Assembly (NCBI GenBank): GCA_042216675.1
Contig: JBDGTS010000008.1
Span: forward strand, 1-64,000
Reading direction: 5' to 3'
DNA: 64,000 nt
Source: Halobacteriaceae archaeon
Lineage (GTDB): Archaea; Halobacteriota; Halobacteria; Halobacteriales; Halobacteriaceae
The notes below the pieces were generated by a model. It was not told where the DNA came from. It searched no databases and worked only from the letters and a program-made list of their open reading frames with translations. Positions 23,170-49,237 of this stretch are shown here, one piece after another; positions within the stretch are counted from its first letter, which is position 1, and each line of letters starts with the position of its first letter. Made by a program: the position numbers and the translations under genes.

Positions 23170-23176
23170 CTTCGCC

Positions 23177-26354: not shown

Positions 26355-26443
26355 GCCTCTCCGTGGGCCAGCGGCGGGCGTAAAGCCGTCGAACGAGGGC
26401 CCGGATGGAACGGTTTAATTGGTCGCCGCCCCTTCCGCCGTCC

Positions 26444-27619: not shown

Positions 27620-27691
27620 CGCGATTTTCCATCGTCTTTTGTGATGAGCGAACAGCAAGGTTGAACAGTCCGGCTTTCGAACCCCTGCATG

Positions 27692-28081: not shown

Positions 28082-28195
28082 GGTCCCCGTCTCTTCGCGC
28101 GTTTTCGCTCGCTGTCTCTCGGAGCGACTGCTCTCGCGTCCCGATGACCGGCATGGCGACGGATAGCAAACGCTAACAGGCCCCGCCGACCCCCT

Positions 28196-29158: not shown

Positions 29159-29199
29159 CGACCAGAAGGCCCTTGTTCGGGACAGCCGTTCTCGCCGTC

Positions 29200-29574: not shown

Positions 29575-30682
29575 CGACCTGGCCGCGGCGCTGGCCGACG
29601 CCGACGAGACGTACCGCGAGCGACAGGCCGCCGTCGAGGAGTACGGCGAGGACGCCCTGCAGACTGTGGCCGACGCGTACCGGGACCTCACGGCCGTCCT
29701 CGACCGCTCGGAGGACTCCGCCACCGGCACCGGCGACTTCGAGGAGTTCCTCGAGTTTCAGGGTCGGGTCGCCACGCTCGTCGAGGACCTGCCCGAGGAC
29801 GTGCCCAAGCGCGAGGCGTTCGAGGCCGTCTCGGAGGTGCTTCACGCCCGCCACCTCCGGGGCAAGCACTTCTCGCAGGCCCGCGACCACCTCGCGGACG
29901 TGGAACCCCTCGTCGAGCGACTGGAGCGCCGCGACGAGGCGCTAGAGACCTACCGCGAGGCCCGCCTCGCCGTCATCGACCGGCGCGAGGAACTGCAGTC
30001 CCGCGTCGACCACCTCGAATCGCTCGTCGCCTACGAGGACGTGGACTGGAACGCGCCCGTGACCGACCTGCGGGACCCCATCGAGGCGTACAACGACGCC
30101 GTGGCCGACGCCGTGACCGACTTCGAGGAGTCGGCGCCCGCCCGCGACTTCCTCGACTGGCTCGGCACCGTCGCCCGCGACTACCCCCTCGTCGACGTCG
30201 AGGCGCCGCCGGGGGACGTGGTGGCCTTCCTCGCCGACGCCGCCGTCGGCGCGGAACCGCTTCCGACGGTGCGCGAGTACGCCGGCTACTCGCGCTCGAA
30301 ACTCGACCACTACGTGGCCGACCCGGGGCGGTTTCTCGCCGTCGTCGGCGGGAGCGAGACGTATCTCGCCGGCCTCTCGGCCGACCCGTTCACCGTCGAC
30401 TGGCCGCCCCGCCCGGCCGACGAACTCCGCTTCCGGTGTGACGAACTCGTCGCCGCCGTCGGGCGCCTCGACGACGATGCGGCCGCCCGCTGTCGCGACG
30501 TGCGGGCACTGACCCGTCGGGACGACTACGAGCGCCTGCGCGAGGCGGCCGTCGCCCGGGATGTACTCGACGCCGACGAGCGAGAGCGCGTCGCGAGCGG
30601 TGCGGCCCGCGAGTCGCTGGCCGAGGCCGAGGCGGAACTGGCCCGCCTCGACGACGCCCTCGACGCGCACCCCGAGCGGTAG
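29567..30682 (+). CDS. Conserved helical/coiled-coil hypothetical protein
   Basis: Acidic helical ORF overlapping the hisI stop; SATGTGDF motif. Confidence 0.78.
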
Positions 30683-30712
30683 GCTCTTTTCGGCGCGCGA
30701 ACAAGCGCGGCC

Positions 30713-31306
30713 ATGGAACTGTACCGGGTGTCGCCGGCCGTGACCCGGCGCCTCGCCCTCGTCGGTGCGCTGGCGCTGGCCGTCTCCGGCTGGCTCCCTC
30801 ACCACATCTGCTGGGACGACCCGATGTGTGCGGTGCCGTGGCTCTCGCTCGTGCCTGTGGTCCTCGCGCTGGCCGTCCTCCGCCGGGGGTGGACGACCCG
30901 CCTCGCCACCGCCGTCGGTTTCGTCGCGGCGGCGTTCTGGGTCGCGGGGCTGATCCACGTCCTCACGAACGTCGAGTCCGTGGTGACGGACATCCTCATC
31001 GGCACCCCGCGTGCGGAGACGCTTCACCGCCTCGCCGCCGCGGGGTATCTCTACGGCGGGACGCTCTCGTTCGCGTCGTTCACGGTCCACGCGGCCCGGC
31101 GCTACGCGCCCGGCGAGCGTCGCCCCGTCGTCGCCGTCTCGCTGGCCCTCGCCGCCCTCCCCGCGGTCGGCCTCGTCGCCGTCAGCGTCGGCCGCGTCGA
31201 CGCGGTGCTGATGGAGGCGCTTCCGGAAGTCGTCACCGTCCTCGCCGTCGTCACGACGGGCCTCGTCGTGACGGCCACCGTCCGGGCGGGGGGCCTCTGG
31301 CCCTAG
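30713..31306 (+). CDS. Membrane protein
   Basis: ~6 hydrophobic segments. Confidence 0.6.
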   Translation: MELYRVSPAVTRRLALVGALALAVSGWLPHHICWDDPMCAVPWLSLVPVVLALAVLRRGWTTRLATAVGFVAAAFWVAGLIHVLTNVESVVTDILIGTPRAETLHRLAAAGYLYGGTLSFASFTVHAARRYAPGERRPVVAVSLALAALPAVGLVAVSVGRVDAVLMEALPEVVTVLAVVTTGLVVTATVRAGGLWP

Positions 31307-38284: not shown

Positions 38285-38379
38285 GACAGGAGATGAGCCG
38301 TCCCGTACCAAGAGCCTTCCGTGGGGGTGTGACCCATCCCCACGCAACATTTATGTGCCACATCCGACAACTCCGGGCG

Positions 38380-38604
38380 ATGACGTACAGTTCAGCGGAC
38401 TACGCACTGCTCGCGAAGCGCGGGTTCCTCGTCGGCGCCACCCTGTTGCTCGTCGGGGCCGGCGGCGAGATTCTCGGCCACGCGCTGTACGGGTCGCTCC
38501 CGGCCTGGGAGTCGACGCTGTTCACCGACATGGAGATTCTCGGCATCCTCATCGGCCTCTTCGCGCCGTTCGTCTTCGGCGTCGCCGCGCCGCTGATGGA
38601 CTGA
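38380..38604 (+). CDS. Small membrane protein
   Basis: DYALLAKRGF..WE.TLF..E..G..PFVFG; TTTATG box ~30 bp upstream. Confidence 0.7.
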   Translation: MTYSSADYALLAKRGFLVGATLLLVGAGGEILGHALYGSLPAWESTLFTDMEILGILIGLFAPFVFGVAAPLMD

Positions 38605-38661
38605 CGGACCGTGGTCTCCGGCCGGGAAACCTTCTTACTGTTGCCGGGCGACGACTCATAC

Positions 38662-39096
38662 ATGTCCGCCGACTGCCCGTTTTGTGCCATCGTCGCCGGC
38701 GAGATTCCGGCGCGCACCGTCCACGAGGACGAGACGGCGATGGGGTTCCTCGACGCGAACCCCCTCGCGCCGGGCCACACGCTCGTCATCCCGAAAGACC
38801 ACCACGAGCGAGTGGGTGACCTGCCCGCGGGCCTCGCCGAGAACGTGCTGACGACGCTCTACGACCTCGCGCCGGCCGTGGAGGCGGCCGTCGAGGCCGA
38901 CGGCACGACCATCGCGTTCAACGACGGCGAGGCCGCGGGACAGGAGGTGCCCCACGTCCACGGCCACGTCGTCCCGCGCTTCGACGACGACGGCGGCCGC
39001 CCGATTCACGCGCTGTTCGACTCGCGCCCGGACCTCGCGGAGGAGGAACTCGACCGCATCGCGGGCGACGTGGTCGAGCGCGTCTCGGACCGCTAA
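38662..39096 (+). CDS. HIT-family protein
   Basis: CPFC..GHTLVIPK..GQEVPHVHGHVVPR. Confidence 0.93.
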   Translation: MSADCPFCAIVAGEIPARTVHEDETAMGFLDANPLAPGHTLVIPKDHHERVGDLPAGLAENVLTTLYDLAPAVEAAVEADGTTIAFNDGEAAGQEVPHVHGHVVPRFDDDGGRPIHALFDSRPDLAEEELDRIAGDVVERVSDR

Positions 39097-39129: not shown

Positions 39130-39873
39130 ATGGCAGTCAGTTCAGCCGCGGTCCTCGGCGCCGTCGGCGGCGCGGGCGCGACCCGCCTCGCCGTCGAGTT
39201 CGGGGCGCTGTTGGCCCGCGACGACCGTGACGTGGCGATTCTCGACGCCGCCTACGCGACGCAGGGCCTCGCGCGCCACGTCGCCGACCGCATCGACCCC
39301 GACGTGACGGCGCTCGTGACAGCCGACGACCCGACGCTGGCCGACGCGCTCTCCGACCATCCACTCGACGTGCCGGGCCGCCTCGCGCTCTGCCCCGCAC
39401 ACGCCCCCTTCGAGCGCATCGCCCGCGCGAAGGCGCCCGAGGCGGCCCGCGCGTTCGAGGACCTCGTGGCGCAGGCCGCGGCCGACTTCGACCACGTTCT
39501 GCTGGACGTGCCGCCCGTCGCCGCGAACCAGTCCGTCGCCGCCGTCACCACGGCCGAGCGGGTCTGTGTGGCGTACCCGCCGACGGACCGGGGCGTCGAC
39601 GCCCTCCAGCGAACCCGGGGCCGCCTCGCCGACGTGGGCGCGGGTGCCGACCTCGTGGTGGCGAACCGCGCCGACCCGGACACAGTGCCGCCGGACGCCG
39701 ACCACGCGATACCGGCGAGCGACGCGACGACGGCCGCCGCGGCGCCGTCGTGTCTCGACGCCGGCGACCCGATGGGGCCAGCCGTCGCTGACGTCGTCAC
39801 TGCGCTGTTCGAGACGGGCCTCGACGTCGACGTGGCGGGCGGACTGCTCGACTCCGCGCGCCGCCGCCTATAG
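39130..39873 (+). CDS. ParA/MinD-like protein with degenerate Walker A
   Basis: GAVGGAGAT, VAILDA, DHVLLDVPP, VVANR. Confidence 0.82.
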   Translation: MAVSSAAVLGAVGGAGATRLAVEFGALLARDDRDVAILDAAYATQGLARHVADRIDPDVTALVTADDPTLADALSDHPLDVPGRLALCPAHAPFERIARAKAPEAARAFEDLVAQAAADFDHVLLDVPPVAANQSVAAVTTAERVCVAYPPTDRGVDALQRTRGRLADVGAGADLVVANRADPDTVPPDADHAIPASDATTAAAAPSCLDAGDPMGPAVADVVTALFETGLDVDVAGGLLDSARRRL

Positions 39874-40380
39874 AACGTCCTCGGGGTCGCCGACGGCGCC
39901 TGCGAGTCGGTCCCGCTTCGACGCCATCGACTCGGCGGGCGCGAGCGTCTCGTTCACCGCCTCGCGCGCCTCGGGAATCGGGTCGTGGGTCTCGACGAAC
40001 GCCCCAAGCGCGAACTCCGTCTCGCTCGCGCCCGTGAGCGAGAGCGCGTCCGTGCGTGAGAGGTCGGCCGAGAGCCAGTCACGGAGTATCTCGCGCTCCG
40101 TGGGCGAGAGCGGCGTTACGCCCTCGACGCCGAGGAGGTGGAGCGCCTTCGCCGCCGTCACGGGGACGACGCCCGCCTCGTCGGCGCTCTCGCCGACGCT
40201 CGCGCCGCCCGCGTACGTCCGCGCGACCGTCGCGGCCGCCTCGGGCGTGCAGGGTAGCGCTTCGGCCACGTCTCGCAACCGGTCCGCCAGCGAGCGGTCG
40301 GTCCGGTCGACGGACGCGACGCCCCGCGCCTGCTGTTCGGTCGTCGTCTCGATGCCGGCCGCGATGTCCGACAGCCCCAT
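39868..40380 (-). CDS. Conserved hypothetical protein with HTH-like segments
   Basis: SVGESADEAGVVPVTAAKALHLLG; LSRTDALSLTGASETEF. Confidence 0.75.
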   Translation of the reverse strand: MGLSDIAAGIETTTEQQARGVASVDRTDRSLADRLRDVAEALPCTPEAAATVARTYAGGASVGESADEAGVVPVTAAKALHLLGVEGVTPLSPTEREILRDWLSADLSRTDALSLTGASETEFALGAFVETHDPIPEAREAVNETLAPAESMASKRDRLAGAVGDPEDVL

Positions 40381-40448
40381 TACCGACTTCTGACACCTCT
40401 ATCCACTTCAAACCCTCGCACGACTGATACGCGGGCCGACAGACCGCG

Positions 40449-40483
40449 CCGAACCACCGACCGGTTACCGGTCGGTAGTTCGG
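40449..40483. promoter_or_regulatory. 35-bp palindrome centred between divergent promoters
   Basis: ccgaaccaccgaccggt-t-accggtcggtagttcgg, 16/17 arm match. Confidence 0.75.
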
Positions 40484-40519
40484 TCGTAGTCACGCGGTTT
40501 CACCCGGTTTGCGGCGATG

Positions 40520-40527
40520 TTTAAATA
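40520..40527 (+). promoter_or_regulatory. TATA box of tfb
   Basis: TTTAAATA ending 28 bp before ATG 40555, consistent with a leaderless transcript. Confidence 0.7.
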
Positions 40528-40554
40528 CTCCTTCCGGTCCAACCTTCAGGTGTG

Positions 40555-41415
40555 ATGAGTCAGGCACGTTCGTCCTGTCCGGAATGCAGTGGCACCCTCA
40601 AAACCGCGCGCGACGAGACCGTCTGCGCCGAGTGCGGACTGGTCGTCGAGGAGAACCGCATCGACCACGGTCCCGAGTGGCGGTCGTTCAGCGACGACGA
40701 CACCAACCGCGAGCGAACTGGCGCACCCCTCACTCGCTCGCGTCACGACCGGGGGCTCTCGACGGAAATCGGCCGCGACACGCGGCTGAAGGGGCGCAAG
40801 CGCCGCCGCCTCGCCCGGATGCGTCGCGAACACAACCGCGCACAGATTTCCTCGAAGGCCGAGCGGAACAAGGTGTACGGCTTCACCGAAATCCGGCGGC
40901 TGGTCGGCGCGCTCTCGCTCCCCTGCGACGTGCGCGAACAGGCGTGTGTCCTCTTCGAGTCCGCGCAGACCGAGGACCTGCTCCACGGTCGCTCTATCGA
41001 AGGCTTCGCCGCCGCCGCGGTGTACGCGACGTGCCGGACGCGTGCTATCTCCCGCGGGGTGAACGAGATTCTCGACCCGGCACGCGCCGACGAGGACGAA
41101 CTCTCGGCGGCCTACGACGCGATGAATCGCGAACTCGGCCTCCCGACCGGTCCCATCGACCCCCGCGAGTACGTCCCCCGCTTCGCGACGGCCCTCGACG
41201 TGAGTGACGCGGTGGAGCGTTGTGCCATCGACCTCGCCGAGACGGCCCGCGAGGAGGGCCTCGACGTGGGCCGTAACCCGCGCGGCGTCGCGGCGGCCTG
41301 TCTCTACACCGCCGCCAAGCGCGTCGGCGCCGACCTCACGCAGGCCCGCGCCGCCGACGCGGCGGACGTGTCGCCCGCGACGCTCCGCAACACCTACACC
41401 GACCTGCAGAACTGA
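40555..41415 (+). CDS. tfb: Transcription initiation factor IIB paralogue
   Basis: CPEC..CAECG Zn ribbon, IDHGPEWRSF, GRSIE, GRNPRGVAAACLY, terminal HTH. Confidence 0.95.
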   Translation: MSQARSSCPECSGTLKTARDETVCAECGLVVEENRIDHGPEWRSFSDDDTNRERTGAPLTRSRHDRGLSTEIGRDTRLKGRKRRRLARMRREHNRAQISSKAERNKVYGFTEIRRLVGALSLPCDVREQACVLFESAQTEDLLHGRSIEGFAAAAVYATCRTRAISRGVNEILDPARADEDELSAAYDAMNRELGLPTGPIDPREYVPRFATALDVSDAVERCAIDLAETAREEGLDVGRNPRGVAAACLYTAAKRVGADLTQARAADAADVSPATLRNTYTDLQN

Positions 41416-42053
41416 ACCGCGTCCGCCAGTTCTCGAAAGCGCGTCGCCGCCGTACTCGACGGCGCAGTCGCCGTCACCGGAACCCCACTCGCCTCAGCGA
41501 CGGCGTTCGACTCGGGAACCGCGACGACCGGCGCACCGAACGCCTCCGCGACCTGTTCTGTCGGCGCTTCGCCGCTGACCCGGTTGAGGACGACCCGGAC
41601 GAGGCCGGTGTCGAACTCCCGGGCGAGCGCCCGCGTCCGCAGGCCGTCGGCCAGCGCCGTCCGGTCCCGGGTCGTCACCGGCACGCAGGCGTCCGCCGCG
41701 AACAGCGGCAGACCGGCGTCGGCGCTCAGACCTGCGGGGCTGTCGACCACGACGGTGCCGTAGCGGGCCGCGACGGCGTCCAACACGTCCGTGAGCGCCG
41801 CGGGGTCGGCGGCGCGGGCGCCCGCCAGCGACCGGCCACACGGGAGCACGTCGACGGCGCCGCCCTCCCGCACGGCCTCGATGGGGTCCGCGCGGCCCGC
41901 CAACACGTCGTGGAGGTCCGGCCCGCGACTCGTCGGGAGGTCCGCCATCGTGAGGTCCGCGTCCACCACCACCGCGTCGAGGGCCGCGGCGAGGTTGAGC
42001 GCCGTCGTCGTCTTCCCGACGCCTCCCTTCCCACCCGCGACGGCGACGATCAT
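41394..42053 (-). CDS. MinD/ParA-family ATPase
   Basis: GGKGGVGKTT, DADL, VVDSPAG, VVLNR. Confidence 0.92.
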   Translation of the reverse strand: MIVAVAGGKGGVGKTTTALNLAAALDAVVVDADLTMADLPTSRGPDLHDVLAGRADPIEAVREGGAVDVLPCGRSLAGARAADPAALTDVLDAVAARYGTVVVDSPAGLSADAGLPLFAADACVPVTTRDRTALADGLRTRALAREFDTGLVRVVLNRVSGEAPTEQVAEAFGAPVVAVPESNAVAEASGVPVTATAPSSTAATRFRELADAVQFCRSV

Positions 42054-42565
42054 CGGTCCCGGAGGCGCTCGATTCGGTCGGCGACGGCGGCCAGCGCCGC
42101 GTCGGTTCTCGGGCCGGCGTCCCCGGCCGCCACGTCGTCGAGCCACGCCGCGACGGGAACCGGAACGGGGTCGCTCGGGGCCGAATCGGCCACTGTGGTG
42201 TCACTCAGGGCTGAGTCGACCGCCACGGCGTCCCGCGGGGGGCGCGGGTCGCCGAGTTCGGCCACCACGTCGGCGCCACACTGCGTCCCCCCGTCGCCGT
42301 CGACGCGCCGCACCTCCGCTGGGGGGTCGGCCGGCGGCGCTGGGGTGGCGTAGCCGAGTGCGAGCGCCCCCTCGGCAGGGACGTCGCCCTCGAAGCCGTC
42401 TTCGTCCCATCCCGGCGCCGCGTCGCCGTGTCTGCGCGGGTACCAGACGGGGCCGTCGAGGCAGTTCTCCACGCGGACGGTTCGCGGCGCGTCGGCGTCG
42501 GTGTGAATCTGTAGTTCGACCAGCGTCACGCCGTCGCGTCGTCGCGTCGTCGCGTCGAGGTGCAT
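42050..42565 (-). CDS. Conserved hypothetical protein with beta-rich N-domain, coupled to the MinD/ParA ATPase
   Basis: ATGA overlap; GVTLV..V.VEN.LDGPVW.PRR.G. Confidence 0.75.
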   Translation of the reverse strand: MHLDATTRRRDGVTLVELQIHTDADAPRTVRVENCLDGPVWYPRRHGDAAPGWDEDGFEGDVPAEGALALGYATPAPPADPPAEVRRVDGDGGTQCGADVVAELGDPRPPRDAVAVDSALSDTTVADSAPSDPVPVPVAAWLDDVAAGDAGPRTDAALAAVADRIERLRDR

Positions 42566-42630
42566 GGCCTCGGCTGGCCGCCCGTTCGGACTTAAACCTC
42601 GACACCGGCGGCCGGGTGCGTGCCCGCCCG

Positions 42631-43455
42631 TCAGACCAGCACCACCGGCGCGTCGAGGCAGTCCCGAGCGGCCGCGGCCGACCCGAACCGGTCGCAGGCG
42701 AGTACGACTGGCGCCCGAACGTCGGCCAGCCGAGCGGCCGCGAGCGCCGCGGTCACCGAATCGCCCTCGTACGCCGCCGGCGTCGGCCCGGGGTCGGCGT
42801 CGCCCGGGACGGCCGCGACGGCGTCTCGGAACGCGCCGTAGTGGTCCCGCGCGAGTCGCTCGCGCGCCTCCCGGCGTTTGTTGTCGGCCCTGTCTGCGAG
42901 TGCGAGGCGCCGCTCCCGGGCGTCCCGCGCGTCGCGGGCGACCCGCCGCGCCCGTTCGAGAGCCTGTTCGGCGGCGATGCGTTCGGTTTCCGCCTCCGAG
43001 AGGCGCCGCGTCGCGTCCGCGAGGGCGGCCTCCGCGTCGGCCGCGTCGGCGTCCAGTTCGCGTCTGGCCTCGATTTCCCCCCGGAGGCGCGCCACCTCCT
43101 CGCGCAAGTCGGCCACGTCCGCGCCGGCCGTCGCGGCCCGGCGCCGCGCCGCGGCCACGTCCGCTTCGGGCACGTCGATTCGCTCGCGGTCGGCGTCGAG
43201 TTCGGCCGCGTCCTCGTCCTCGGGCGCGGTGGCGCCACGGGACCGGGCCGCGGCGGCGACGGCCGCACGCACCGGCGTCGCCATCTCCGGCCGGACGTGG
43301 CCCACGTACTCGTGGACCGGGCCGGGGTCGGGACAGCGCACGCGCCCGTCGTCGGGGTCACGAACCGCCGCGGCGACGGCCGCGCCCGACACCTCGGCGC
43401 CGCGCGCGTCGACGGCCCGACCCGACGCGTCGAGGCCGTCGAACCGGAGTTTCAT
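42631..43455 (-). CDS. Coiled-coil hypothetical protein
   Basis: Central ~110-aa heptad-like region between globular ends. Confidence 0.75.
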   Translation of the reverse strand: MKLRFDGLDASGRAVDARGAEVSGAAVAAAVRDPDDGRVRCPDPGPVHEYVGHVRPEMATPVRAAVAAAARSRGATAPEDEDAAELDADRERIDVPEADVAAARRRAATAGADVADLREEVARLRGEIEARRELDADAADAEAALADATRRLSEAETERIAAEQALERARRVARDARDARERRLALADRADNKRREARERLARDHYGAFRDAVAAVPGDADPGPTPAAYEGDSVTAALAAARLADVRAPVVLACDRFGSAAAARDCLDAPVVLV

Positions 43456-43796
43456 AGATCGGTGTTCCGCATCGCCGCGGGGTCGGGGTGGTCAGTGTTC
43501 GCCGCGAAGGCCGGATAGGGGGTGCTGGGCGCGTCCCGGTCGGCGTACGCCACCGCCGCTTTCCGCACTGACTCGGGCACGTCGGCGTACTCGTTGAGCG
43601 GTTCCGTGCGCTCTATCTGCACGTCGCCGCCGTGGTCGGCGCGCAGGCGCAGGGCGAGGAAGGCGCCAAACTCAGTTTCCCTGAGAAGCGCCGCGCGGCC
43701 GAACCGGCGCACCACGCTCCCCTCGTGGGCGTTGCAGACGTTCCGGAGTGCCTGTCTGGCCGCCTTCGAGTAGCACGCGACGAGCAGCACGCGCAC
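43452..43796 (-). CDS. Conserved hypothetical protein
   Basis: LLVACYS.AAR..LRNVC..RRFGRAAL; 4-bp overlap with the next gene. Confidence 0.72.
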   Translation of the reverse strand: MRVLLVACYSKAARQALRNVCNAHEGSVVRRFGRAALLRETEFGAFLALRLRADHGGDVQIERTEPLNEYADVPESVRKAAVAYADRDAPSTPYPAFAANTDHPDPAAMRNTDL

Positions 43797-43836
43797 CCCT
43801 CGGATTTCCGACCACTAAAAACCACGCGACGGCGCG

Positions 43837-44115
43837 TCAGTCGATGCGCTCTATCTCGAACTCGGAGCCGTCTTCGGTGAGTGCGTTTGCGCGCTCGCGG
43901 GCCTCGCTGGCGCTCTCCGCGACCACCACGAGGTCGTCGGCCGGGTCCGGGCGCCCGGCGCGATAGGCACTCCGGCCGTCCTCGGCGTCGAACTCGGTGA
44001 CGTAGGTGCGGAGGACGCCCACGACGCGTCGCTCGGCCGTGGCGAGGTCAACCTCGCCGGTTTCGAGGTCCGAGAGCGCTTCCTCGACGTTCCGGAGCGC
44101 GGCGATTCGGTCCAT
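43837..44115 (-). CDS. Conserved hypothetical protein
   Basis: MDRIAALRNVEEAL..E.GEVDLAT.E. Confidence 0.72.
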   Translation of the reverse strand: MDRIAALRNVEEALSDLETGEVDLATAERRVVGVLRTYVTEFDAEDGRSAYRAGRPDPADDLVVVAESASEARERANALTEDGSEFEIERID

Positions 44116-44198
44116 CAGCGGAGCAACGCCGGAGCGCGAAAAGAAGATGACGGTCAGGGTCCGGTAGCGTGAAGCCGCCCCCTCCCCTTCCGCGAGAC

Positions 44199-45560
44199 GT
44201 GCAGACTGCCCGCGTCCGCGCGGTGTGGCGGCGCGTCCTCGGCCTCTCGTGGCCAATCATGGCCGAGCAGACGCTCCGGACGCTGATGCGCACGACGGAC
44301 GTCATCGTGACGGCGACGTTCTCGCCCGCGGCCGTCGCGGCCATCGGCCTCGCTGACTTGTACGCCCGCCTCCCCCTCCGCATCGGGTTGGGTCTCGGCG
44401 GCGGCGCCATCGCCCTCTCCAGTCAGGACACCGGGCGCGGCGCGGCGGCCGACCGCGACGAGGCCATCACGCAGGCTCTTTTCGTGGGCGTCCTCGCCGG
44501 CCTCCCGTTCGTCGCCTTCGGTCTGTTCCTCGGCGAGGCGGCCATCGCCGTCCTCGGCGCGCCGCCCGCCGTCGCGCGGATGGGCGGCACCTACCTCGCC
44601 ATCATCCTCCTGACAGCGCCGGCGCGCCACGTCGCTCTCATCGGCGCCCGCTCGCTGCAGGGCACCGGCGACACCCGCACGCCGATGTACGTCAACGTCG
44701 TCTCGAACGCCCTCAACATCGCCGGCTCCGTCGTCCTCGGGCTGGGCCTGCTCGGCGCGCCTCGCCTCGGCATCGTCGGGGTCGGCCTCGCCACCGCCGT
44801 CGGCAACGTCGTCACGGCGTCGGCGCTCCTCGTCGCTCTCGCGGGCCGGTGGACCGAGGCCGCCCTCGTCCGCCCGACGAACCCGGTCATCGCCCGGCAA
44901 CTCCTGTCCGTGAGCGCGCCGCGCGTCGGCGAGGGCCTCGTCGCCACCGTCGCGGCGTTCCCGTTCAACAGCCTCCTCCTCTCCTTCGGGACGCCGGTCA
45001 ACGCCGGCTACCAGATCGGGCGGCGGATGTATCAGCAGGTGACCGGACCGCTCTCGCGTGGCTACAACGTCGCGGCGAGCGTCGTCGTCGGGCAGGCTCT
45101 CGGAGACGAGGCCCCGGACCGCGCCCGTTTCGAGGGGTGGGCGACGGCGGCGCTGGGCCTCCTCACCGTCGGTACCGTCGGCCTCGCCCTGTTCGTCTGG
45201 GCCGACGCCTTCGTCCACCTGTTCACGGATGACTCCCAAATCGTCGGCCCGGCCGTCGGCTTCGCGCGGGCCTACGGCGTCTCCGCGCCGTTCCTCGTCC
45301 TCTTCGTCGTCCTCTCGGGCGCGCTTCAGGGGGGAAGCGACACCCGCACCCCGTTCGTCGCGCGGACGACGGGGCTCTTTGGCTTCATGCTGGGCTTCTC
45401 CGCGCTGACGGGCCTCGCCCTCGGGTGGGGCGCCCACGGCGCCTACGCCGGCATCGTCCTGTTCCACGTCTGGGCGGCGCTGGTCGTGGGCTACGGCTTC
45501 CGGCGCGGGGACTGGGTCGAGAAGGCGACGGCGATGATGGACGAGCGTGCGGCGGCCTAG
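44199..45560 (+). CDS. MATE-family efflux transporter
   Basis: LSWPIM, AVAAIG, LQGTGDTRTPM, LQGGSDTRTP; start uncertain. Confidence 0.9.
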   Translation: MQTARVRAVWRRVLGLSWPIMAEQTLRTLMRTTDVIVTATFSPAAVAAIGLADLYARLPLRIGLGLGGGAIALSSQDTGRGAAADRDEAITQALFVGVLAGLPFVAFGLFLGEAAIAVLGAPPAVARMGGTYLAIILLTAPARHVALIGARSLQGTGDTRTPMYVNVVSNALNIAGSVVLGLGLLGAPRLGIVGVGLATAVGNVVTASALLVALAGRWTEAALVRPTNPVIARQLLSVSAPRVGEGLVATVAAFPFNSLLLSFGTPVNAGYQIGRRMYQQVTGPLSRGYNVAASVVVGQALGDEAPDRARFEGWATAALGLLTVGTVGLALFVWADAFVHLFTDDSQIVGPAVGFARAYGVSAPFLVLFVVLSGALQGGSDTRTPFVARTTGLFGFMLGFSALTGLALGWGAHGAYAGIVLFHVWAALVVGYGFRRGDWVEKATAMMDERAAA

Positions 45561-48500
45561 AGCGTGCGGAAGTGGTCCGGCGAGGGCTGGTAGATTTCGC
45601 CCTTCTGCTTGAGGTTCTCGATTTCGTTCTCGGCCTTCGAGCGCTCCATCCCGTCGGCCTCGGCGGCGTCAAGCACTTTTTCGAGGGGCGCGCCCTCGTC
45701 GTACTCGTCCTGCAGGTCGTCGATGACGTCCTTGATGCCCCGGATGCGGTCACGCTGGCTCTTGGAGGTGCCCGTCTCGATGACGTCGGCGTCGAACTCG
45801 CCCGTCTCGGGGTCCATCCCGACGTCCTCCATCGTCTTGCGCACGATCTCGATGACGCGGTCGGCGTCGGCCTCGGTCACCTCGTCGGCGAGGCGCACCC
45901 GCGCGGAGGCCTCCGCGAGGCGGACCAGCGCTTCGAGTTTTCGGGCGGTCACCGGCACGGGGGCGTCCTCGCCGGTGCCCTGCGCCCGCAGGTCGACGTA
46001 GAACTCGCGGATGCGCGCCATCGCCGCCTCCGTCATCGTCGGGAAGATGTTGCGCCGCGAGTAGGCGACGTACTTCCGCAGGAGTTCGGGTTCGATGGCG
46101 GGCGCCACGTCGTCGGTGACGCTCTCGACTTCCGCCTCGGAGACGTTCGACTGGGTCATCTCCGTGCGGTGGGTGTTGAGTTCGCCCGCGTAGTTCGTCT
46201 TCAGGATGTGGTCGGCGAGTTCGGCGTCTCGCTCCTCGTCCGGTTGGTCCGTGACGGTGAAGATGAGGTCGAACCGGGAGATGAGCGCGGGTTCGAGGTC
46301 GATCTGCTCGCCGATGCCCTCGTACTGGTCGAAGCGGCCGTGTTTGGGGTTCGCCGCCCCCAGTAACGAGCATCGGGCCTTCAGCGTGGCGTTGATGCCC
46401 GCCTTCGAGATGGAGACGGTCTGCTGTTCGAGGGCCTCGTGGAGCGCCGAGCGGTCGCCGGCCTCCATCTTGTCGAGTTCGTCCACCGCCGCCACGCCCT
46501 TGTCCGCGAGGACGACGGCGCCGGCTTCCAGCGTCCACTGCTGGCCGTCGCCGAAGTCGTCGCGGACGGCGGCGGCGGTGAGACCGGCCGAACTGGAGCC
46601 TTTACCGGAGGTGTACACCGACCGGGGGCTGATGTGGCGGATGTACTGGAGCAGTTGGGAGTTGTGCGAGACGATTCCATTCGAGACGTAGCTGTGCGTC
46701 CCCCCGACTTCGAGGTCGTACACCCACTCGTCGTCCGGTTCGACCGTCTCGATGGACTCGATTCGGTCCCAGCGCACGTCGCTCTCGGCGAGCGACCGGA
46801 GCGCTCGCACGTCATCGGCGGCCGCGAGTGCCTCGTCGATGGTGTTGAGGACCGCGTCGCGAGCGTCCGTGGTGTGTCCGCCGTCGGGCGCCACGTCCTC
46901 GCGCTCGTAGTAGCTAATCGCCGTCTGGGTCACGTCCATCCCGTCGGCGAGCGTCTGTTGGGAGAGTCTGAGTTCCCGTCGCACCGCCGTGATGTCGTCC
47001 CAGTCTCCCGCAGCTATTTTCGCTCGCATCGTCCGGAGGTGTTCGAGGCGGTCCTCGAAGGCCGAAACGACGGCGTCGAGACTCTCTCGGCTCGGATTCC
47101 GGTCTCCTCGTTCGTAGTGCTGGTACGTCGTCCGGGGAACGCCACACTCCCGCTGAGACAGCGCCAGTGCCTCCCGAACTCGGCGGAGGTCATCGCCCAC
47201 GTCGGGCACTACATCCCGGTTCGTGTTCCGGTCGGCGTCCCCGAACGCCTCGGCGGCGGACGACTTCCGCTCCGTGACGAAGCCGACCGATTCGACGTAT
47301 CGAACGAAATCCTCGCCGCTGATGCGCAGTCGATAGCTCCCGTTGTGGCGAGATTCGAGGCTCGAACCGACGCCGAGGCTCAACAGCAGCGACCGCACTC
47401 CGCCGAGTAGCGTCTCGCTCATCGACGCCACCGTTATTTCACGCTCTGCCGACGAGACGTGCCCTTCGCCCTCGACGTACGCTTCGAGGAACGCCGCCTT
47501 GATTTCGGGGCTCGCGCGGAACAGCGATTCGGGAACGCGTTGCGCCGCGGAGCCGTCGAGAACTGCTGGCTCGATGCCGTGGAGGAAGCGCACGAGTTCG
47601 CTCGACGTGCAGATAATCTCGGCTGCGGCCGTTCCGCTTCGGCTGTTCCGTTCCGTCCAGTTGACGCCGAGACGGTCGAGCGCCTCCGTCACGTCGTCGA
47701 GTACCGCACGGTCGTTGTTCGTGACGCGAAGGTCTGCGGTGTTGTCGTCGTTCAGCGTCGCGTACCCCTCCGCAACGACGTATCCGACGAACCGGGCTAA
47801 CCACGGCGTCCACTCGCTCGGCGGGTCGAGTCGGACCGCGTTGGGCGACTTCGAGCGTCGGAACTCGATGGCTAGTTCGTCGTCCCCGGCTTCGGGGAGG
47901 TGTCGCGGCGTGGCGACGAAGTCGCCTTCGTCGAGGTCCGACGCCTCTATTGGCCTGAAATCCCCGCCTGACTGTACGAACAGAGGGTGTGACGGCGTCA
48001 CCGTCAGTACCCGACCGCTGGCGGTTGCGATGCGGTACATCTCCTCCGGCGCCTCGCGCTTCCACACTTTCGTCGCGCGTCGCGGTTCGATCCGTCCGTC
48101 GGGTGTGAGCGAGGGGACCTCGGCGTCAACCGTATCGTACACGCCGTCGTCAATCGGTTTCGGGTCGTCGAGGTTCGCCTCCACGAACTCCCGAATCCCG
48201 ACTTCCGAGCCGTCAGCGAGCGTGATGGGGGTGTCCCCGTCGAGACACTTCCCCGTACCCGGGTCCCCGATGAGGAGCATGTGGAGGTCCCCCCGCGTCC
48301 GGGAGCCGTCGGGGAGGTGCTTGGTGACGCCGGAGAACAACTGGAGCGCCATCGCCAACTTCGCCTGCCGGTGGCCGTAGATGGCGGGCGCGATGGAGTC
48401 CACCATCATCTCGTAGATGTCGTCGCTGTCGGACAGTTCGGCGATGTCGGCCTTGTCCTCGTCGTCGATGTCCATGTCCTCGTACTCCTCGTCCTCCACG

Positions 48501-49237
48501 GACACCGAGCGGCCGTCCATGTAGATGTCGAAGACGGGGCTGTCGTCCTGTCCGCCGCCCTGTTGGTCGAGTCGGAGGACGCCCGTGACGGTGACGTGGT
48601 CGCCGGGCGAGACGACGCCCGTCAGGTCGTCCTCGACGTTCACGTCGATAGACTGGGGCGTCTCGCCCCCGCGTAGGCCCTCGGGGCTCTCCTGAATTCG
48701 GAGTTTTTGGGAGTCCACGAACTCCGACTGGTCGACGTTGAGTTGGAACGGCCCCTGTCGCTCACAGCCCTCGCACTCGTGGGGTTCCTGATACGTGCCA
48801 CTGGACTGGGGGACGTAGGTGAGCGTGCCACAGCGCTGGCACTCGAAGGCCGCCTCCTGCACCTTCGGGCGCACGTCGGTGGCCTTGCGAATCATCCCCT
48901 TCACGGCCACCATCGTCGAGACGTGCTCTGAACGGAGGTCCCGAATCTCGGTGGCCTCGACGCCGGAGAGGCGGACGTGAGCCTGTCCGAGACTCACGTC
49001 GACGGGCAAATCGTAGAGGCGCAGGGCCTCCTCGGCGTACTCCTGCAGTTGGTCCGGTTGCGCGACGAAGTCCTCCGCGAGGTCCGGGTCGAACTGGTAC
49101 AGGTCCGCCCACTCGACCCCGAGGGACTTCTGCTCGCGCGGGTAGCGGCGCGCCAACTCACCGATGTCGTCGCTGTAGTAGCGTCGGTAGAACTGCTCGA
49201 ACCGTTCGACGAGTTCCTGATTCTCGGCGCGCGCCAT
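45557..49237 (-). CDS. mcm: MCM replicative helicase containing one intein
   Basis: CQRC..CEGC Zn finger, IQESPE, GDPGTGK|S, GLTAA, DELDKM, AANP, SRFD. Confidence 0.97.
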   Translation of the reverse strand: MARAENQELVERFEQFYRRYYSDDIGELARRYPREQKSLGVEWADLYQFDPDLAEDFVAQPDQLQEYAEEALRLYDLPVDVSLGQAHVRLSGVEATEIRDLRSEHVSTMVAVKGMIRKATDVRPKVQEAAFECQRCGTLTYVPQSSGTYQEPHECEGCERQGPFQLNVDQSEFVDSQKLRIQESPEGLRGGETPQSIDVNVEDDLTGVVSPGDHVTVTGVLRLDQQGGGQDDSPVFDIYMDGRSVSVEDEEYEDMDIDDEDKADIAELSDSDDIYEMMVDSIAPAIYGHRQAKLAMALQLFSGVTKHLPDGSRTRGDLHMLLIGDPGTGKCLDGDTPITLADGSEVGIREFVEANLDDPKPIDDGVYDTVDAEVPSLTPDGRIEPRRATKVWKREAPEEMYRIATASGRVLTVTPSHPLFVQSGGDFRPIEASDLDEGDFVATPRHLPEAGDDELAIEFRRSKSPNAVRLDPPSEWTPWLARFVGYVVAEGYATLNDDNTADLRVTNNDRAVLDDVTEALDRLGVNWTERNSRSGTAAAEIICTSSELVRFLHGIEPAVLDGSAAQRVPESLFRASPEIKAAFLEAYVEGEGHVSSAEREITVASMSETLLGGVRSLLLSLGVGSSLESRHNGSYRLRISGEDFVRYVESVGFVTERKSSAAEAFGDADRNTNRDVVPDVGDDLRRVREALALSQRECGVPRTTYQHYERGDRNPSRESLDAVVSAFEDRLEHLRTMRAKIAAGDWDDITAVRRELRLSQQTLADGMDVTQTAISYYEREDVAPDGGHTTDARDAVLNTIDEALAAADDVRALRSLAESDVRWDRIESIETVEPDDEWVYDLEVGGTHSYVSNGIVSHNSQLLQYIRHISPRSVYTSGKGSSSAGLTAAAVRDDFGDGQQWTLEAGAVVLADKGVAAVDELDKMEAGDRSALHEALEQQTVSISKAGINATLKARCSLLGAANPKHGRFDQYEGIGEQIDLEPALISRFDLIFTVTDQPDEERDAELADHILKTNYAGELNTHRTEMTQSNVSEAEVESVTDDVAPAIEPELLRKYVAYSRRNIFPTMTEAAMARIREFYVDLRAQGTGEDAPVPVTARKLEALVRLAEASARVRLADEVTEADADRVIEIVRKTMEDVGMDPETGEFDADVIETGTSKSQRDRIRGIKDVIDDLQDEYDEGAPLEKVLDAAEADGMERSKAENEIENLKQKGEIYQPSPDHFRTL
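46661..48247 (-). mobile_element. 529-aa intein in the MCM Walker A, with LAGLIDADG endonuclease and two HTH-XRE-like domains
   Basis: Starts CLDGDT after GTGK, TPSHP block B, VGYVVAEG and LEAYVEGEG motifs, ends VYDLEV..SHN|S. Confidence 0.95.

What the first reader, a model, noticed from the sequence alone, without database searches (positions are those of the whole stretch)
39130..44115. Candidate uncharacterised system: twin ParA/MinD + extra TFB + HTH-like + coiled-coil cassette near mcm
Seen: dead-ParA -> <- HTH-like | palindrome | tfb -> <- active MinD <- coupled beta-rich protein <- coiled-coil protein <- two small proteins. The genes are packed with 4-, 6- and 22-bp overlaps and lie one gene from mcm. 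Established: ParA/MinD ATPases position DNA or protein cargo through partner proteins, and haloarchaea carry several TFB paralogues. Inference: a positioning, segregation or developmental module with its own TFB and cis site. From memory, a similar neighbourhood occurs in other haloarchaea without an assigned function (unverified).
Basis: partly seen in the sequence, partly recalled or inferred. Interest (0 to 1): 0.78.

Follow-up and report, generated by a model that had tools for sequence, protein, structure and literature searches.

The report
Conserved haloarchaeal MinD1 gene system beside mcm
This is a real set of about eight genes, found only in salt-loving archaea and gained or lost as a set, built around the uncharacterised positioning ATPase MinD1 and a small DNA-binding-type protein with its own conserved DNA site, and it names testable partners for MinD1.

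Summary

The cassette is two conserved blocks.
- Block 1 follows mcm: DUF7854, then two translationally coupled pairs, DUF7855-DUF7856 and DUF7857-MinD. This MinD is the counterpart of Haloferax volcanii MinD1 (HVO_0225).
- Block 2 holds a TFB paralogue and DUF7858 (HTH-like), read divergently from a ~170-bp spacer. At its centre is a conserved ACCGGT-N-ACCGGT palindrome. A ParA-fold protein lacking both Walker A lysines follows.

DUF7856 and DUF7858 occur in the same 124 of 201 Halobacteria genomes. This holds even where the blocks lie more than 70 kb apart. DUF7855 was in 0 of 132 genomes of other families in the phylum.

The TFB is not private to the system. Seven of seven genomes of one family that lacks the system keep the TFB beside mcm, without the palindrome.

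Published H. volcanii data show DUF7858 and the TFB strongly derepressed in csmR and cirA mutants while block 1 is unchanged.

Function is inferred: a MinD1 positioning module with new partners, and DUF7858 as the likely palindrome binder. It is a new variant of a known kind and is testable in Haloferax.

The parts
39130..39873 (+). A: ParA/MinD-fold protein without Walker A lysines (pseudo-ATPase). By gene order it is the counterpart of H. volcanii HVO_0228.
   Evidence: AAA_31 at 27.1 bits, cut-off 27. The motif xGxxGGAG(T/A)TR replaces KGGxGK(S/T) in the window and in 14 of 14 orthologues. HVO_0228 is noted as a weak Walker A match in passages of 10.1101/2020.04.03.021790.
39868..40380 (-). 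B: DUF7858, a 170-aa protein with HTH-like segments. It is the candidate binder of the palindrome.
   Evidence: PF25257, E 2.5e-71. HTH_28 in 6 of 18 orthologues. Mean column identity 64%. Single copy in 10 of 10 genomes checked.
40449..40483 (.). Palindrome with core ACCGGT-T-ACCGGT at 40460-40472. It lies 86 bp from the B start codon and 89 bp from the TFB ATG.
   Evidence: A core with at most 2 mismatches lies about 80-96 bp upstream of the TFB start in the window and in 22 of 23 other loci from DUF7858-positive genomes.
40520..40527 (+). TATA box TTTAAATA of the TFB promoter (near-leaderless transcript).
   Evidence: Sequence. An AT-rich hexamer at this place in 19 of 19 TFB loci.
40552..41415 (+). 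TFB paralogue. The start is probably the ATG at 40555. Counterpart of HVO_0226.
   Evidence: Zn ribbon plus TFIIB repeats. 65-68% identity to the cluster-linked TFB of five genomes, against 54% or less for their other TFBs.
41394..42053 (-). MinD-type deviant Walker A ATPase, the counterpart of MinD1 (HVO_0225).
   Evidence: CbiA, ParA and AAA_31 above cut-off. GKGGVGKTT and the conserved Asp residues. minD_arch at 137.7 bits, below its cut-off of 201.75.
42050..42565 (-). E: DUF7857. It has a conserved ~100-aa N-terminal domain, a GDPRPPRD motif, a variable linker and a helical C-terminus. Its stop overlaps the MinD start by 4 bp.
   Evidence: PF25256, E 5.6e-31. Alignment. The 4-bp overlap recurs in 18 of 20 loci.
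42591..42596 (-). TATA-like TTTAAG about 30 nt upstream of the E start.
   Evidence: An AT-rich hexamer at this place in 21 of 22 sequences, window included.
42631..43455 (-). F: DUF7856. It has a long antiparallel coiled coil, with N- and C-terminal alpha/beta segments at its two ends in sequence.
   Evidence: PF25254, E 1e-84. Model pLDDT 97.2, pTM 0.82, helices 78-215.
43452..43796 (-). G: DUF7855. It has a ferredoxin-like beta-alpha-beta-beta-alpha-beta core plus C-terminal helices. The likely start is the GTG at 43790. Its stop overlaps the F start by 4 bp.
   Evidence: PF25253, E 1.9e-54. Model pLDDT 96.3. Mean column identity 70%. The 4-bp overlap recurs in 16 of 24 loci.
43815..43821 (-). 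TATA-like TTTTTAG about 25-30 nt upstream of the G start.
   Evidence: An AT-rich hexamer at this place in 23 of 25 sequences, window included.
43837..44115 (-). H: DUF7854, 92 aa. In most genomes it starts within 9 bp of the mcm stop.
   Evidence: PF25252, E 1.2e-31. The mcm-to-H gap is 9 bp or less in 15 of 22 loci.
45557..49237 (-). Context: mcm with an intein. It is the conserved upstream neighbour of block 1, here separated from H by a MATE gene at 44169-45560 (+).

Best explanation
The interval is a Halobacteria-specific, chromosomal, single-copy gene system made of two blocks that are kept or lost together.

Block 1 lies downstream of mcm. It holds H (DUF7854), then G-F (DUF7855-DUF7856), then E-MinD1 (DUF7857 and the ATPase). 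Each pair is translationally coupled and has its own TATA-like box.

Block 2 holds a TFB paralogue and B (DUF7858). They are read divergently from a ~170-bp spacer with the ACCGGT-N-ACCGGT palindrome at its centre. A, a ParA-fold pseudo-ATPase, follows.

Proposed mechanism (all inferred, none shown):
- MinD1 is the ATP-driven positioning motor, and E is its stoichiometric adaptor.
- F is a roughly 100-angstrom coiled-coil rod with a small head and no ATPase motifs. With G it forms the scaffold or cargo.
- B binds the palindrome and from there activates the TFB gene and its own gene.
- The target is more likely nucleoid- or replication-associated than motility or shape.
For: Synteny. 24 loci from 24 genomes in 7 families were chosen for having DUF7856.
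- mcm is alongside in 22 of 24, H in 23, G in 24, E in 21, MinD in 21, TFB in 18, B in 17 and A in 14.
- Order and strands are the same throughout.

Coupling.
- The 4-bp E/MinD overlap is in 18 of 20 loci.
- The 4-bp G/F overlap is in 16 of 24.
- The divergent TFB-B spacer is 148-195 bp in 16 of 17.

Promoters. TATA-like boxes precede G (23 of 25), E (21 of 22), B (17 of 18), TFB (19 of 19) and A (13 of 15), but H in only 7 of 24.

Co-inheritance.
- PF25254 and PF25257 each hit 124 of 201 genomes, with identical family and genus tallies and the same handles.
- PF25253 hits 128 of 201.
- F and B both remain in at least 17 genomes where they lie more than 70 kb apart. In genus g7, both are present in 23 of 23 genomes, and they lie on one contig more than 85 kb apart in the 10 I could compare (coordinates).
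- In G162, F, H and B are gone while G, E, MinD and TFB, which lie between them, remain. That needs two separate deletions.

Palindrome.
- It is present at the same offset in the window and in 22 of 23 other TFB loci of B-positive genomes.
- It is found in 1 of 10 TFB-orthologue loci of B-negative genomes, and that one is a relic.
- It stays with the TFB when B has moved away (L030, L035).

ATPase state. MinD1 motifs are intact. The A motifs are lost in all 15 sequences aligned.

Models. F has pLDDT 97.2 and G 96.3.

H. volcanii data from the supplement of PMC13286277.
- Wild-type TPM at low, mid and stationary density: G 79, 32, 16.5. F 76, 27, 6.7. E 37, 12.5, 3.2. MinD1 9.2, 2.9, 1.1.
- B and TFB rise together in the csmR mutant: log2FC +5.37 and +2.99.

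Location. The cluster lies 50-223 kb from the long Orc1-type gene in 9 of 10 complete chromosomes from 10 genera (with coordinates).
Against: - No physical interaction is shown.
- H. volcanii minD1 deletion gave no shape, division or MinD4-localisation phenotype. The quadruple minD mutant swims like the minD2/4 double (passages).
- Strong derepression of B and TFB does not change HVO_0222-0225 transcripts. So block 2 does not drive block 1 transcription under those conditions.
- Much of the co-loss could be single deletions of adjacent genes. All B-negative genomes that keep the TFB belong to one family, which counts as one evolutionary event.
- Fold matches are weak: F has Foldseek E of 0.017 or worse and TM of 0.34 or less, and G has Z of 7.5 or less.
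- B's DNA binding rests on weak HTH_28 hits in 6 of 18 orthologues.
- Origin proximity is not independent of conserved synteny, and one genome (G045) has the cluster 1.22 Mb from that Orc1 gene.
- G, and in one genome G-E-MinD, persist without F and B. The parts are therefore not strictly interdependent.
Confidence: 0.42

Rival explanations
1. The two blocks are unrelated and merely neighbours by descent. Block 2 is a motility and shape regulatory switch: B as activator plus an alternative TFB under CsmR and CirA control. Block 1 is a separate module of unknown function.
For: - A CsmR ChIP peak and motif lie in the HVO_0226/0227 spacer (supplement file 7).
- B rises 40- to 150-fold and TFB 7- to 10-fold in the csmR and cirA mutants, while HVO_0222-0225 do not change.
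- The paper lists the TFB variant HVO_0226 among possible regulators of motility and shape (passage).
- The blocks are separated in several genera.
- The TFB persists without block 1.
Against: - F and B have identical presence and absence in 201 genomes, including genera where they are unlinked.
- In G162, F and B were lost while the genes between them were kept.
- A full CsmR motif was seen only in L018's spacer among those I read by eye, and not in the window.
Confidence: 0.25
2. The system is a chromosome partition-like machine. B is a centromere-binding protein, the palindrome is its centromere-like site near the main origin, MinD1 (with A as a regulatory pseudo-ATPase) is the motor, and F is an SMC-like organiser.
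For: - A ParA/MinD ATPase, an HTH-type protein and a palindrome next to that protein's gene recall ParABS and archaeal SegAB. That comparison is from my own knowledge.
- The exact core occurs 1 to 5 times per genome (1, 1, 1, 2, 3 and 5 in six genomes, own included), against 0 for the reversed control.
- The cluster is 50-223 kb from the long Orc1-type gene in 9 of 10 chromosomes.
- F's best, though weak, fold rows are SMC and Rad50 heads with coiled coils.
- A silent minD1 phenotype is expected in a polyploid.
- B mRNA is abundant (692 TPM in wild type), unlike a typical regulator.
Against: - B has no ParB-family match.
- F lacks any P-loop (sequence).
- When TFB and B are separated, the site follows the TFB promoter and not B. 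That fits an operator better than a centromere.
- The extra sites flank unrelated genes.
- Origin proximity may be inherited synteny.
Confidence: 0.13
3. Block 1 encodes accessory factors of the MCM helicase or replisome, for loading, positioning or regulation. The link to mcm is functional.
For: - mcm is adjacent in 22 of 24 loci, and H starts 9 bp or less after the mcm stop in 15 of 22.
- G remains beside mcm in G035 and G056 after the rest was lost.
- Expression of G through MinD1 falls 5- to 11-fold from low density to stationary phase.
Against: - mcm TPM is flat across growth (192, 146, 171) while G through MinD1 fall.
- H has its own transcription start in H. volcanii (supplement of PMC4983044).
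- 77 of 201 genomes have no DUF7856, and every fetched locus of a DUF7856-negative genome that reached the TFB's neighbour still held mcm.
- In the window a MATE gene separates H from mcm.
Confidence: 0.12
4. It is a mobile element or an anti-virus defence island.
For: F gives one weak PADLOC hit to JetC (E 2e-4, 17.3 bits, coiled-coil part only). Lamassu and Wadjet rows appear among the weak fold matches.
Against: - It is single copy with fixed synteny beside mcm in seven families.
- GC content is like its surroundings.
- No integrase is present, and 7 of 8 proteins have no PADLOC match.
- PHROGs matches only the two ParA-fold proteins.
Confidence: 0.02

Closest known systems
H. volcanii MinD paralogues (MinD1 HVO_0225; MinD2 and MinD4 act in motility)
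   Same: The window's ATPase is the positional counterpart of MinD1. Gene order mcm-H-G-F-E-MinD-TFB-B-A fits HVO_0220 to HVO_0228. The product names and gene lengths for HVO_0220 to HVO_0228 in the supplement of PMC13286277 fit that order. It has the deviant Walker A motif.
   Different: MinD1 has no described function or partner (passage). The other MinD paralogues do not lie in this neighbourhood. The partners proposed here (E, F, G, H, B, A) are not discussed in any main text I could search.
ParABS and archaeal SegAB-type partition systems (comparison from my own knowledge)
   Same: A ParA/MinD-fold ATPase, a small DNA-binding-type protein, and a palindromic site beside that protein's gene.
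   Different: B is not a ParB family member. There are two ATPase-fold proteins, one of them dead. There are four extra lineage-specific proteins. The site follows a TFB promoter.
ParA-type ATPases that move coiled-coil cargo, such as PomXYZ of Myxococcus (from my own knowledge)
   Same: A ParA/MinD ATPase encoded with coiled-coil proteins that could be its cargo or activators.
   Different: There is no sequence relationship. The system is archaeal, and localisation is unknown.
SMC/Rad50 head plus coiled-coil architecture
   Same: F's model has a long antiparallel coiled coil (helices 78-215), with the N- and C-terminal segments (1-72 and 233-273) on either side of it in sequence. The top Foldseek rows are SMC and Rad50 heads.
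   Different: F has no Walker A, Walker B or signature motifs and only 274 aa. The matches are weak: E of 0.017 or worse, and Rad50 at Z 9.4 with rmsd 9.1.
CsmR/CirA motility and shape regulon of H. volcanii (PMC13286277)
   Same: HVO_0226 and HVO_0227 share a CsmR ChIP peak and are derepressed in the csmR and cirA mutants.
   Different: The CsmR motif TATCA-N4-TGATA is a different element from the ACCGGT palindrome, and lies beside it in L018. The main text does not discuss HVO_0227. The window's spacer has no full CsmR motif.

Membership tests
ParA/MinD deviant Walker A ATPases: gene D (41394-42053) | Deviant Walker A KGGxxGK(S/T), including the signature lysine | tested here: met
   GKGGVGKTT in the window. 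K9 and K14 are nearly invariant and G13 and T16 invariant across 22 orthologues.
ParA/MinD deviant Walker A ATPases: gene D | Family models above their curated cut-offs | tested here: met
   CbiA 49.4 bits (cut-off 25.4), ParA 39.4 (27.1), AAA_31 37.6 (27).
Archaeal MinD subfamily TIGR01969: gene D | Score at or above the curated cut-off of 201.75 bits | tested here: not met
   137.7 bits. It is MinD-like but outside the curated subfamily threshold.
Bacterial-type Min system (MinCDE) | MinC or MinE partner encoded alongside | tested here: not met
   None of the 12 neighbouring proteins matches a MinC or MinE family. A passage of PMC11621097 says no MinE equivalent is known.
Bacterial-type Min system (MinCDE) | C-terminal amphipathic membrane-targeting helix on MinD | not tested
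   A passage of 10.1101/2020.04.03.021790 says MinD1-3 have no clear membrane-targeting sequence. I ran no amphipathicity analysis.
ParA/MinD ATPases: gene A (39130-39873) | Walker A lysines needed for ATP binding and dimerisation | tested here: not met
   AVGGAGATR in the window. Both lysine positions are non-lysine in all 15 sequences, while three MinD sequences in the same alignment keep them. The fold family is only borderline: AAA_31 at 27.1 bits against 27.
TFB / TFIIB | N-terminal zinc ribbon plus two cyclin-like TFIIB repeats | tested here: met
   Zn_Ribbon_TF 52.1 bits and TFIIB 118.9 bits in two stretches. NCBIfam PRK00423 scores 257, below its cut-off of 384.
SMC/Rad50/RecN ABC-type proteins: gene F | ABC ATPase head with Walker A, Walker B and signature motif | tested here: not met
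   No P-loop in the window protein or in the consensus of 25 sequences. SMC models score 11.7-15.1 bits against cut-offs of 567-729.
SMC/Rad50/RecN ABC-type proteins: gene F | Same fold: a split head joined by an antiparallel coiled coil | tested here: inconclusive
   Foldseek best row is a cohesin head at E 0.017, TM 0.19. VIA gives Rad50 9q9h_A at Z 9.4, rmsd 9.1 over 263 residues, below the level that means anything for helical proteins.
ParABS-type partition system | Centromere-binding protein of the ParB or RHH families | tested here: not met
   B matches only DUF7858 above threshold. Its profile finds no solved structure at E of 1 or better.
ParABS-type partition system | Specific centromere repeats bound by the partner protein | not testable with these tools
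   A conserved palindrome exists. Binding cannot be computed here.
HTH DNA-binding proteins: gene B | Recognisable helix-turn-helix domain | tested here: inconclusive
   HTH_28 in 6 of 18 orthologues, best E 2.8e-4. The window copy itself has no HTH hit at E of 5 or better. No structure was predicted for B.
Known anti-virus defence systems (PADLOC) | Match of the component proteins to system models | tested here: not met
   7 of 8 proteins have no match. F matches JetC at E 2e-4, 17.3 bits, in the coiled coil only.

The most novel reading that the evidence does not exclude
Halobacteria carry an origin-proximal, partition-like machine built from parts with no known relatives. DUF7858 binds a near-unique palindrome as a centromere-like anchor. 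MinD1, with a dead ParA-fold paralogue as modulator, supplies ATP-driven movement. A miniature, ATPase-less, SMC-shaped rod (DUF7856), together with DUF7855 and DUF7857, organises the DNA or the replisome. This would be the first candidate chromosome-organising system specific to polyploid haloarchaea, and it would give MinD1 a function.
Probability: 0.13. Interest if true: 0.9.

Novelty: new variant of a known kind. Interest (0 to 1): 0.62.

Why it matters
MinD1 of Haloferax volcanii has no described function or partners (passage of PMC11621097). How polyploid haloarchaea organise or partition their chromosomes is, to my knowledge, an open question.

This analysis turns a row of Pfam DUFs into a defined system:
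- a parts list;
- transcription units;
- a conserved cis element;
- a candidate DNA-binding component;
- a predicted SMC-shaped rod;
- a clear pattern of loss as a set.

All parts exist in H. volcanii as HVO_0221 to HVO_0228, where deletions, fluorescent fusions, ChIP and pull-downs are routine. Each proposed link can therefore be tested directly.

The analysis also separates the conserved ACCGGT palindrome from the published CsmR motif in the same spacer. HVO_0227 reaches 12,000-96,000 TPM in the csmR and cirA mutants, yet I found no main text that mentions it.

Tried and rejected
- **Complex prediction of MinD with DUF7857**. The verdict was 'no answer' (score 0.00). It is evidence neither way.
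- **Fold searches for F** (Foldseek pdb; VIA wide). The coiled coil dominates, and no match rises above the level expected for helical proteins.
- **Fold searches for G**. Only a generic ferredoxin-like core was found: UreE C-domain at Z 7.5, and Cas2 rows at Foldseek E around 0.025. No functional inference was drawn.
- **Profile of G against 1.84 billion representatives**. 28 proteins reached E of 0.001 or better. Most are about 50-175 aa, apparently the family itself. Five are longer (327-2573 aa) with multi-stretch matches, which I took for noise without checking. No link to a known family emerged.
- **ESM Atlas.** For G it returned its own family, plus an unnamed Actinomycetota cluster at 0.90, which is a lead only. 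For an E orthologue it returned Ig-like neighbours at TM 0.23-0.32, also a lead only.
- **Profile of B against PDB sequences**. Nothing at E of 1 or better.
- **Extra exact palindrome copies** in G113, G081 and G041, seven sites. The flanking genes are unrelated: chorismate synthase, levansucrase, a molybdopterin oxidoreductase, an amidotransferase and an integrase. No shared regulon emerged.
- **Search for an A orthologue in five DUF7856-negative genomes**. I used a profile that also contained three MinD rows. The best hits (134 bits or less) look like MinD paralogues, so the result is inconclusive.
- **PADLOC and PHROGs**. No defence or viral signature.
- **Earlier findings of this scan**. 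Nothing.
- **Not done.** I did not run the look-up of sequencing runs, read laying, a TFB or MinD tree, or a structure of B, E, H or A.
- **Not readable.** The PDF supplements of PMC13286277 and the supplement of the bioRxiv preprint could not be read. They may hold further data on HVO_0225 to HVO_0228.

Full report
**1. What is in the window**

| Label | Coordinates | Identity |
|---|---|---|
| A | 39130-39873 (+) | ParA-fold pseudo-ATPase |
| B | 39868-40380 (-) | DUF7858 |
| TFB | 40552-41415 (+) | TFB paralogue |
| D | 41394-42053 (-) | MinD-type ATPase |
| E | 42050-42565 (-) | DUF7857 |
| F | 42631-43455 (-) | DUF7856 |
| G | 43452-43796 (-) | DUF7855 |
| H | 43837-44115 (-) | DUF7854 |

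- The overlaps are 6 bp (A/B, convergent), 22 bp (TFB/MinD, convergent), 4 bp (E stop/MinD start) and 4 bp (G stop/F start).
- A MATE transporter gene at 44169-45560 (+) separates H from an intein-bearing mcm at 45557-49237 (-).
- Pfam assigns H, G, F, E and B to the consecutively numbered families DUF7854 to DUF7858, with E-values from 1e-31 to 1e-85.
- The TFB has a zinc ribbon and two TFIIB repeats.
- The MinD matches CbiA, ParA and AAA_31 above their cut-offs. It stays below the curated archaeal MinD cut-off, at 137.7 against 201.75 bits.
- A reaches AAA_31 only at the cut-off (27.1 against 27). It has neither Walker A lysine, a state shared by all 14 orthologues aligned.
- GC content (0.66-0.78) does not set the region apart.

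**2. Conserved neighbourhood**

DUF7856 is single copy in 122 of the 124 genomes that have it, out of 201 sampled Halobacteria genomes. Two genomes carry a second, sub-cut-off match. H. volcanii is the only positive among the 14 control genomes.

I fetched about 20 kb around the gene in 24 genomes from seven families and compared them with the window's proteins by tblastn. The loci were chosen for having DUF7856.

| Gene alongside | Loci (of 24) |
|---|---|
| mcm | 22 |
| H | 23 |
| G | 24 |
| E | 21 |
| MinD | 21 |
| TFB | 18 |
| B | 17 |
| A | 14 |

The order and strands are always the same: mcm > H > G > F > E > MinD, then the convergent TFB, the divergent B and the convergent A.

This order fits the H. 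volcanii numbering.
- HVO_0220 is MCM (passage of PMC3972481).
- HVO_0225 is MinD1, and HVO_0228 is a ParA/MinD homologue with a weak Walker A match (passages of 10.1101/2020.04.03.021790).
- HVO_0226 is a TFB (passage of PMC13286277).
- The product names and gene lengths for HVO_0220 to HVO_0228 in that paper's supplement also fit.

**3. Transcription units**

- The E/MinD 4-bp overlap recurs in 18 of 20 loci and the G/F overlap in 16 of 24.
- H begins 9 bp or less after the mcm stop in 15 of 22 loci.
- AT-rich, TATA-like hexamers lie 23-40 nt upstream of the start codons of G (23 of 25 sequences, window included), E (21 of 22), B (17 of 18), TFB (19 of 19) and A (13 of 15). For H the count is only 7 of 24.
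- The window has such boxes before H, G and E.

The cassette is therefore several short, mostly leaderless units: mcm(-H), G-F, E-MinD, TFB, B and A.

Published H. volcanii data agree.
- A dRNA-seq table lists primary transcription starts for HVO_0221 (5-nt leader) and HVO_0227 (1-nt leader). It lists none for HVO_0222, 0225, 0226 or 0228 (supplement of PMC4983044).
- Wild-type TPM values at low, mid and stationary density (supplement file 4 of PMC13286277):

| Gene | Low | Mid | Stationary |
|---|---|---|---|
| mcm | 192 | 146 | 171 |
| H | 237 | 228 | 106 |
| G | 79 | 32 | 16.5 |
| F | 76 | 27 | 6.7 |
| E | 37 | 12.5 | 3.2 |
| MinD1 | 9.2 | 2.9 | 1.1 |

G and F are equal, G through MinD1 fall together, and mcm is flat.

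**4. The palindrome**

- The window's site at 40449-40483 has 17-nt arms.
- Its core, ACCGGT-T-ACCGGT, lies 86 bp from the B start and 89 bp from the TFB ATG.
- Every TFB-B spacer I extracted holds the same element: the window plus 16 loci.
- A core with at most 2 mismatches lies about 80-96 bp upstream of the TFB start in 17 of 18 TFB loci of the first set. The exception, L016, has a longer palindrome with 3 core mismatches.
- It is also present in 5 of 5 further TFB-B pairs found elsewhere in genomes whose block 1 lacks them.
- Where B has moved 1.8 kb away (L030), or is elsewhere in the genome (L035), the site stays with the TFB. B genes without a TFB neighbour (L041, L042) have no site.
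- The exact core occurs once in the window's assembly and 1, 1, 2, 3 and 5 times in five other genomes. The reversed control gives 0 in all of them.
- The seven extra copies flank unrelated genes.
- The site lies roughly 45-55 bp upstream of both TATA boxes. That is the position of an upstream activating site rather than a repressor site (inference).

**5. Inheritance**

- DUF7858 (B) is found in 124 of 201 genomes, with the same family and genus tallies and the same handles as DUF7856 (F).
- DUF7855 (G) is found in those 124 plus four more.
- The match holds although F and B lie more than 70 kb apart in at least 17 genomes. In genus g7, both are present in 23 of 23 genomes, and they lie on one contig more than 85 kb apart in the 10 I could compare (coordinates).
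- Decayed copies exist. In G122, truncated F and B remnants abut. In G167, B carries a stop codon. In G191, B is split.
- DUF7855 was found in 0 of 132 genomes of other families in the phylum.

**6. The TFB is older and wider than the system**

- In five system-positive genomes the cluster TFB is 65-68% identical to the window's, while their other TFBs reach 54% or less.
- In family f5, where 0 of 49 genomes have F or B, 7 of 7 genomes from six genera keep a 57-67% identical TFB. In 6 of the 7 it lies right beside mcm.
- None of the seven has the palindrome within 170 bp upstream, apart from one 2-mismatch relic at the right offset, in L047.
- Intermediate states exist in f5: mcm-G-TFB in G035 and G056, and mcm-G-E-MinD-TFB in G162. 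None of these has F, H, B or the site.
- Three system-negative genomes of other families (G015, G078, G005) have no TFB above 55% identity.

The ancestral arrangement was thus probably the full cluster. F and B were lost together even when the genes between them stayed, and the site disappeared along with B.

The caveat is that all B-negative, TFB-positive cases belong to one family.

**7. Protein models**

- **F** folds with pLDDT 97.2 and pTM 0.82. It has beta strands and helices at 1-72, helices spanning 78-215 with a turn at 134-138, and an alpha/beta segment at 233-273.
  - The top Foldseek rows are SMC and Rad50 heads with coiled coils, but they are weak (E of 0.017 or worse). The wide search is dominated by the coiled coil.
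  - F has no P-loop.
- **G** folds with pLDDT 96.3 into a ferredoxin-like core at residues 1-66 plus helices. It has only generic matches.
  - A profile search of 1.84 billion proteins found just 28 hits.
- **E** has a conserved N-terminal domain, a GDPRPPRD motif, a variable acidic linker and a helical C-terminus. An Atlas model of an orthologue has Ig-like neighbours at low TM.
- **B** shows HTH_28 hits in 6 of 18 orthologues.

**8. Regulation in H. volcanii**

All of this comes from the supplement of PMC13286277.
- A CsmR ChIP peak with the motif TATCA-N4-TGATA lies between HVO_0226 (77 bp away) and HVO_0227 (86 bp away) (file 7; motif from passages).
- In the csmR mutant at low density, HVO_0227 rises by log2FC +5.37 (padj 7e-48) and HVO_0226 by +2.99 (padj 1.5e-18). 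HVO_0222-0225 and 0228 do not change (file 2).
- HVO_0227 TPM values (file 4):

| Strain | Low | Mid | Stationary |
|---|---|---|---|
| Wild type | 692 | 636 | 146 |
| cirA mutant | 55,709 | 96,433 | 33,145 |
| csmR mutant | 27,212 | 31,476 | 12,098 |

- The CsmR-type motif lies next to the palindrome in L018's spacer and is distinct from it. The window's spacer has no full copy.
- Joint induction of B and the TFB fits a shared activating site with positive feedback by B (inference).
- The unchanged block 1 argues against block 2 driving block 1 transcription.

**9. Location**

The long Orc1-type gene marks the start of several complete assemblies. It lies 50-223 kb from the cluster in 9 of 10 complete chromosomes from ten genera, which is 1.7-11.7% of chromosome length. 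In G045 it lies 1.22 Mb away (with coordinates). This may simply reflect conserved synteny.

**10. Reading**

Shown:
- a lineage-specific, co-inherited system with defined units and a conserved cis element;
- an intact MinD1 ATPase and a conserved dead paralogue.

Inferred:
- MinD1 with E, and F with G, act as a positioning machine;
- B binds the palindrome.

Motility, shape and division phenotypes of minD1 mutants were looked for and not found (passages). That finding, together with the mcm and origin-side location and F's outline, tilts the guess toward a nucleoid- or replication-linked target. This remains a guess.

The main rival is that the blocks are functionally separate, with block 2 belonging to the CsmR/CirA motility and shape circuit.

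**11. Novelty**

- The families exist in Pfam as DUFs.
- MinD1, HVO_0228 and the TFB HVO_0226 are named in papers.
- No paper in the searchable library mentions DUF7854 to DUF7858.
- HVO_0221-0224 and HVO_0227 appear in no main text.
- The system-level picture appears to be new.

Noticed in passing
L021:8514-9134, L022:8481-9131, L027:10730-11296, L030:8526-9107, L031:10757-11389, L033:8511-9158, L034:8555-9181, L036:10755-11345: In 8 of 24 loci an extra co-directional gene of about 190-215 aa sits between H and G. The four copies scanned match DUF7504/DUF7090, a RecA/KaiC-like fold family related to DUF835. The window's genome has seven paralogues elsewhere but none in this cluster.
   Followed up: partly
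window 44169-45560 (+): A MATE efflux gene is inserted between H and mcm, on the opposite strand. None of the five loci from the window's own family has it there. One other genome has a MATE gene on the far side of mcm. Its 5' end lies about 23 bp from the TATA-like stretch before H.
   Followed up: partly
window 45557-49237 (-): mcm encodes 1226 aa with a large insertion at about residues 330-845 that looks like an intein. Related loci show different numbers and positions of such insertions. This is consistent with the intein-rich haloarchaeal MCM described in PMC10643990 (search listing only).
   Followed up: no
L018 spacer (L018:12927-13094): A full CsmR-type motif, TATCA-N4-TGATA, lies about 10 bp from the ACCGGT palindrome, between it and the TATA box of B. 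Among the other spacers read by eye, I saw only partial copies.
   Followed up: partly
L126 (G041:C1:2381400-2384400), site at about 1514: A second perfect, extended palindrome with the same flanks as that genome's TFB site lies upstream of a chorismate synthase gene and just after a gene that, by eye from its N-terminal sequence, resembles a uracil-DNA glycosylase (no family scan). Other extra sites have weaker flanks.
   Followed up: partly
window 42566-42600 and the same place in 21 loci: Between the TATA-like box and the E start codon there is a conserved GC-rich stretch, of the type CGAA..CGGGCGGCCA(G/A)C, in most loci. It may be an initiator or leader element.
   Followed up: no
G122:C1:2610802-2611371: Truncated DUF7856 (profile positions 1-151) and DUF7858 (114-169) remnants abut. 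This looks like a deletion that removed E, MinD and TFB together.
   Followed up: no
window 38293-39096 (+): DUF7860 (a small membrane protein) and a HIT-family gene precede A. HIT lies beside A in many loci, and in the relocated block 2 copies as well. In H. volcanii, HVO_0228 and HVO_0229 share a mid-phase expression peak.
   Followed up: partly
supplement of PMC13286277 (H. volcanii HVO_0227): HVO_0227 mRNA reaches 33,000-96,000 TPM in the cirA mutant and 12,000-31,000 TPM in the csmR mutant, against 146-692 in wild type. My searches found no main text that mentions it.
   Followed up: partly
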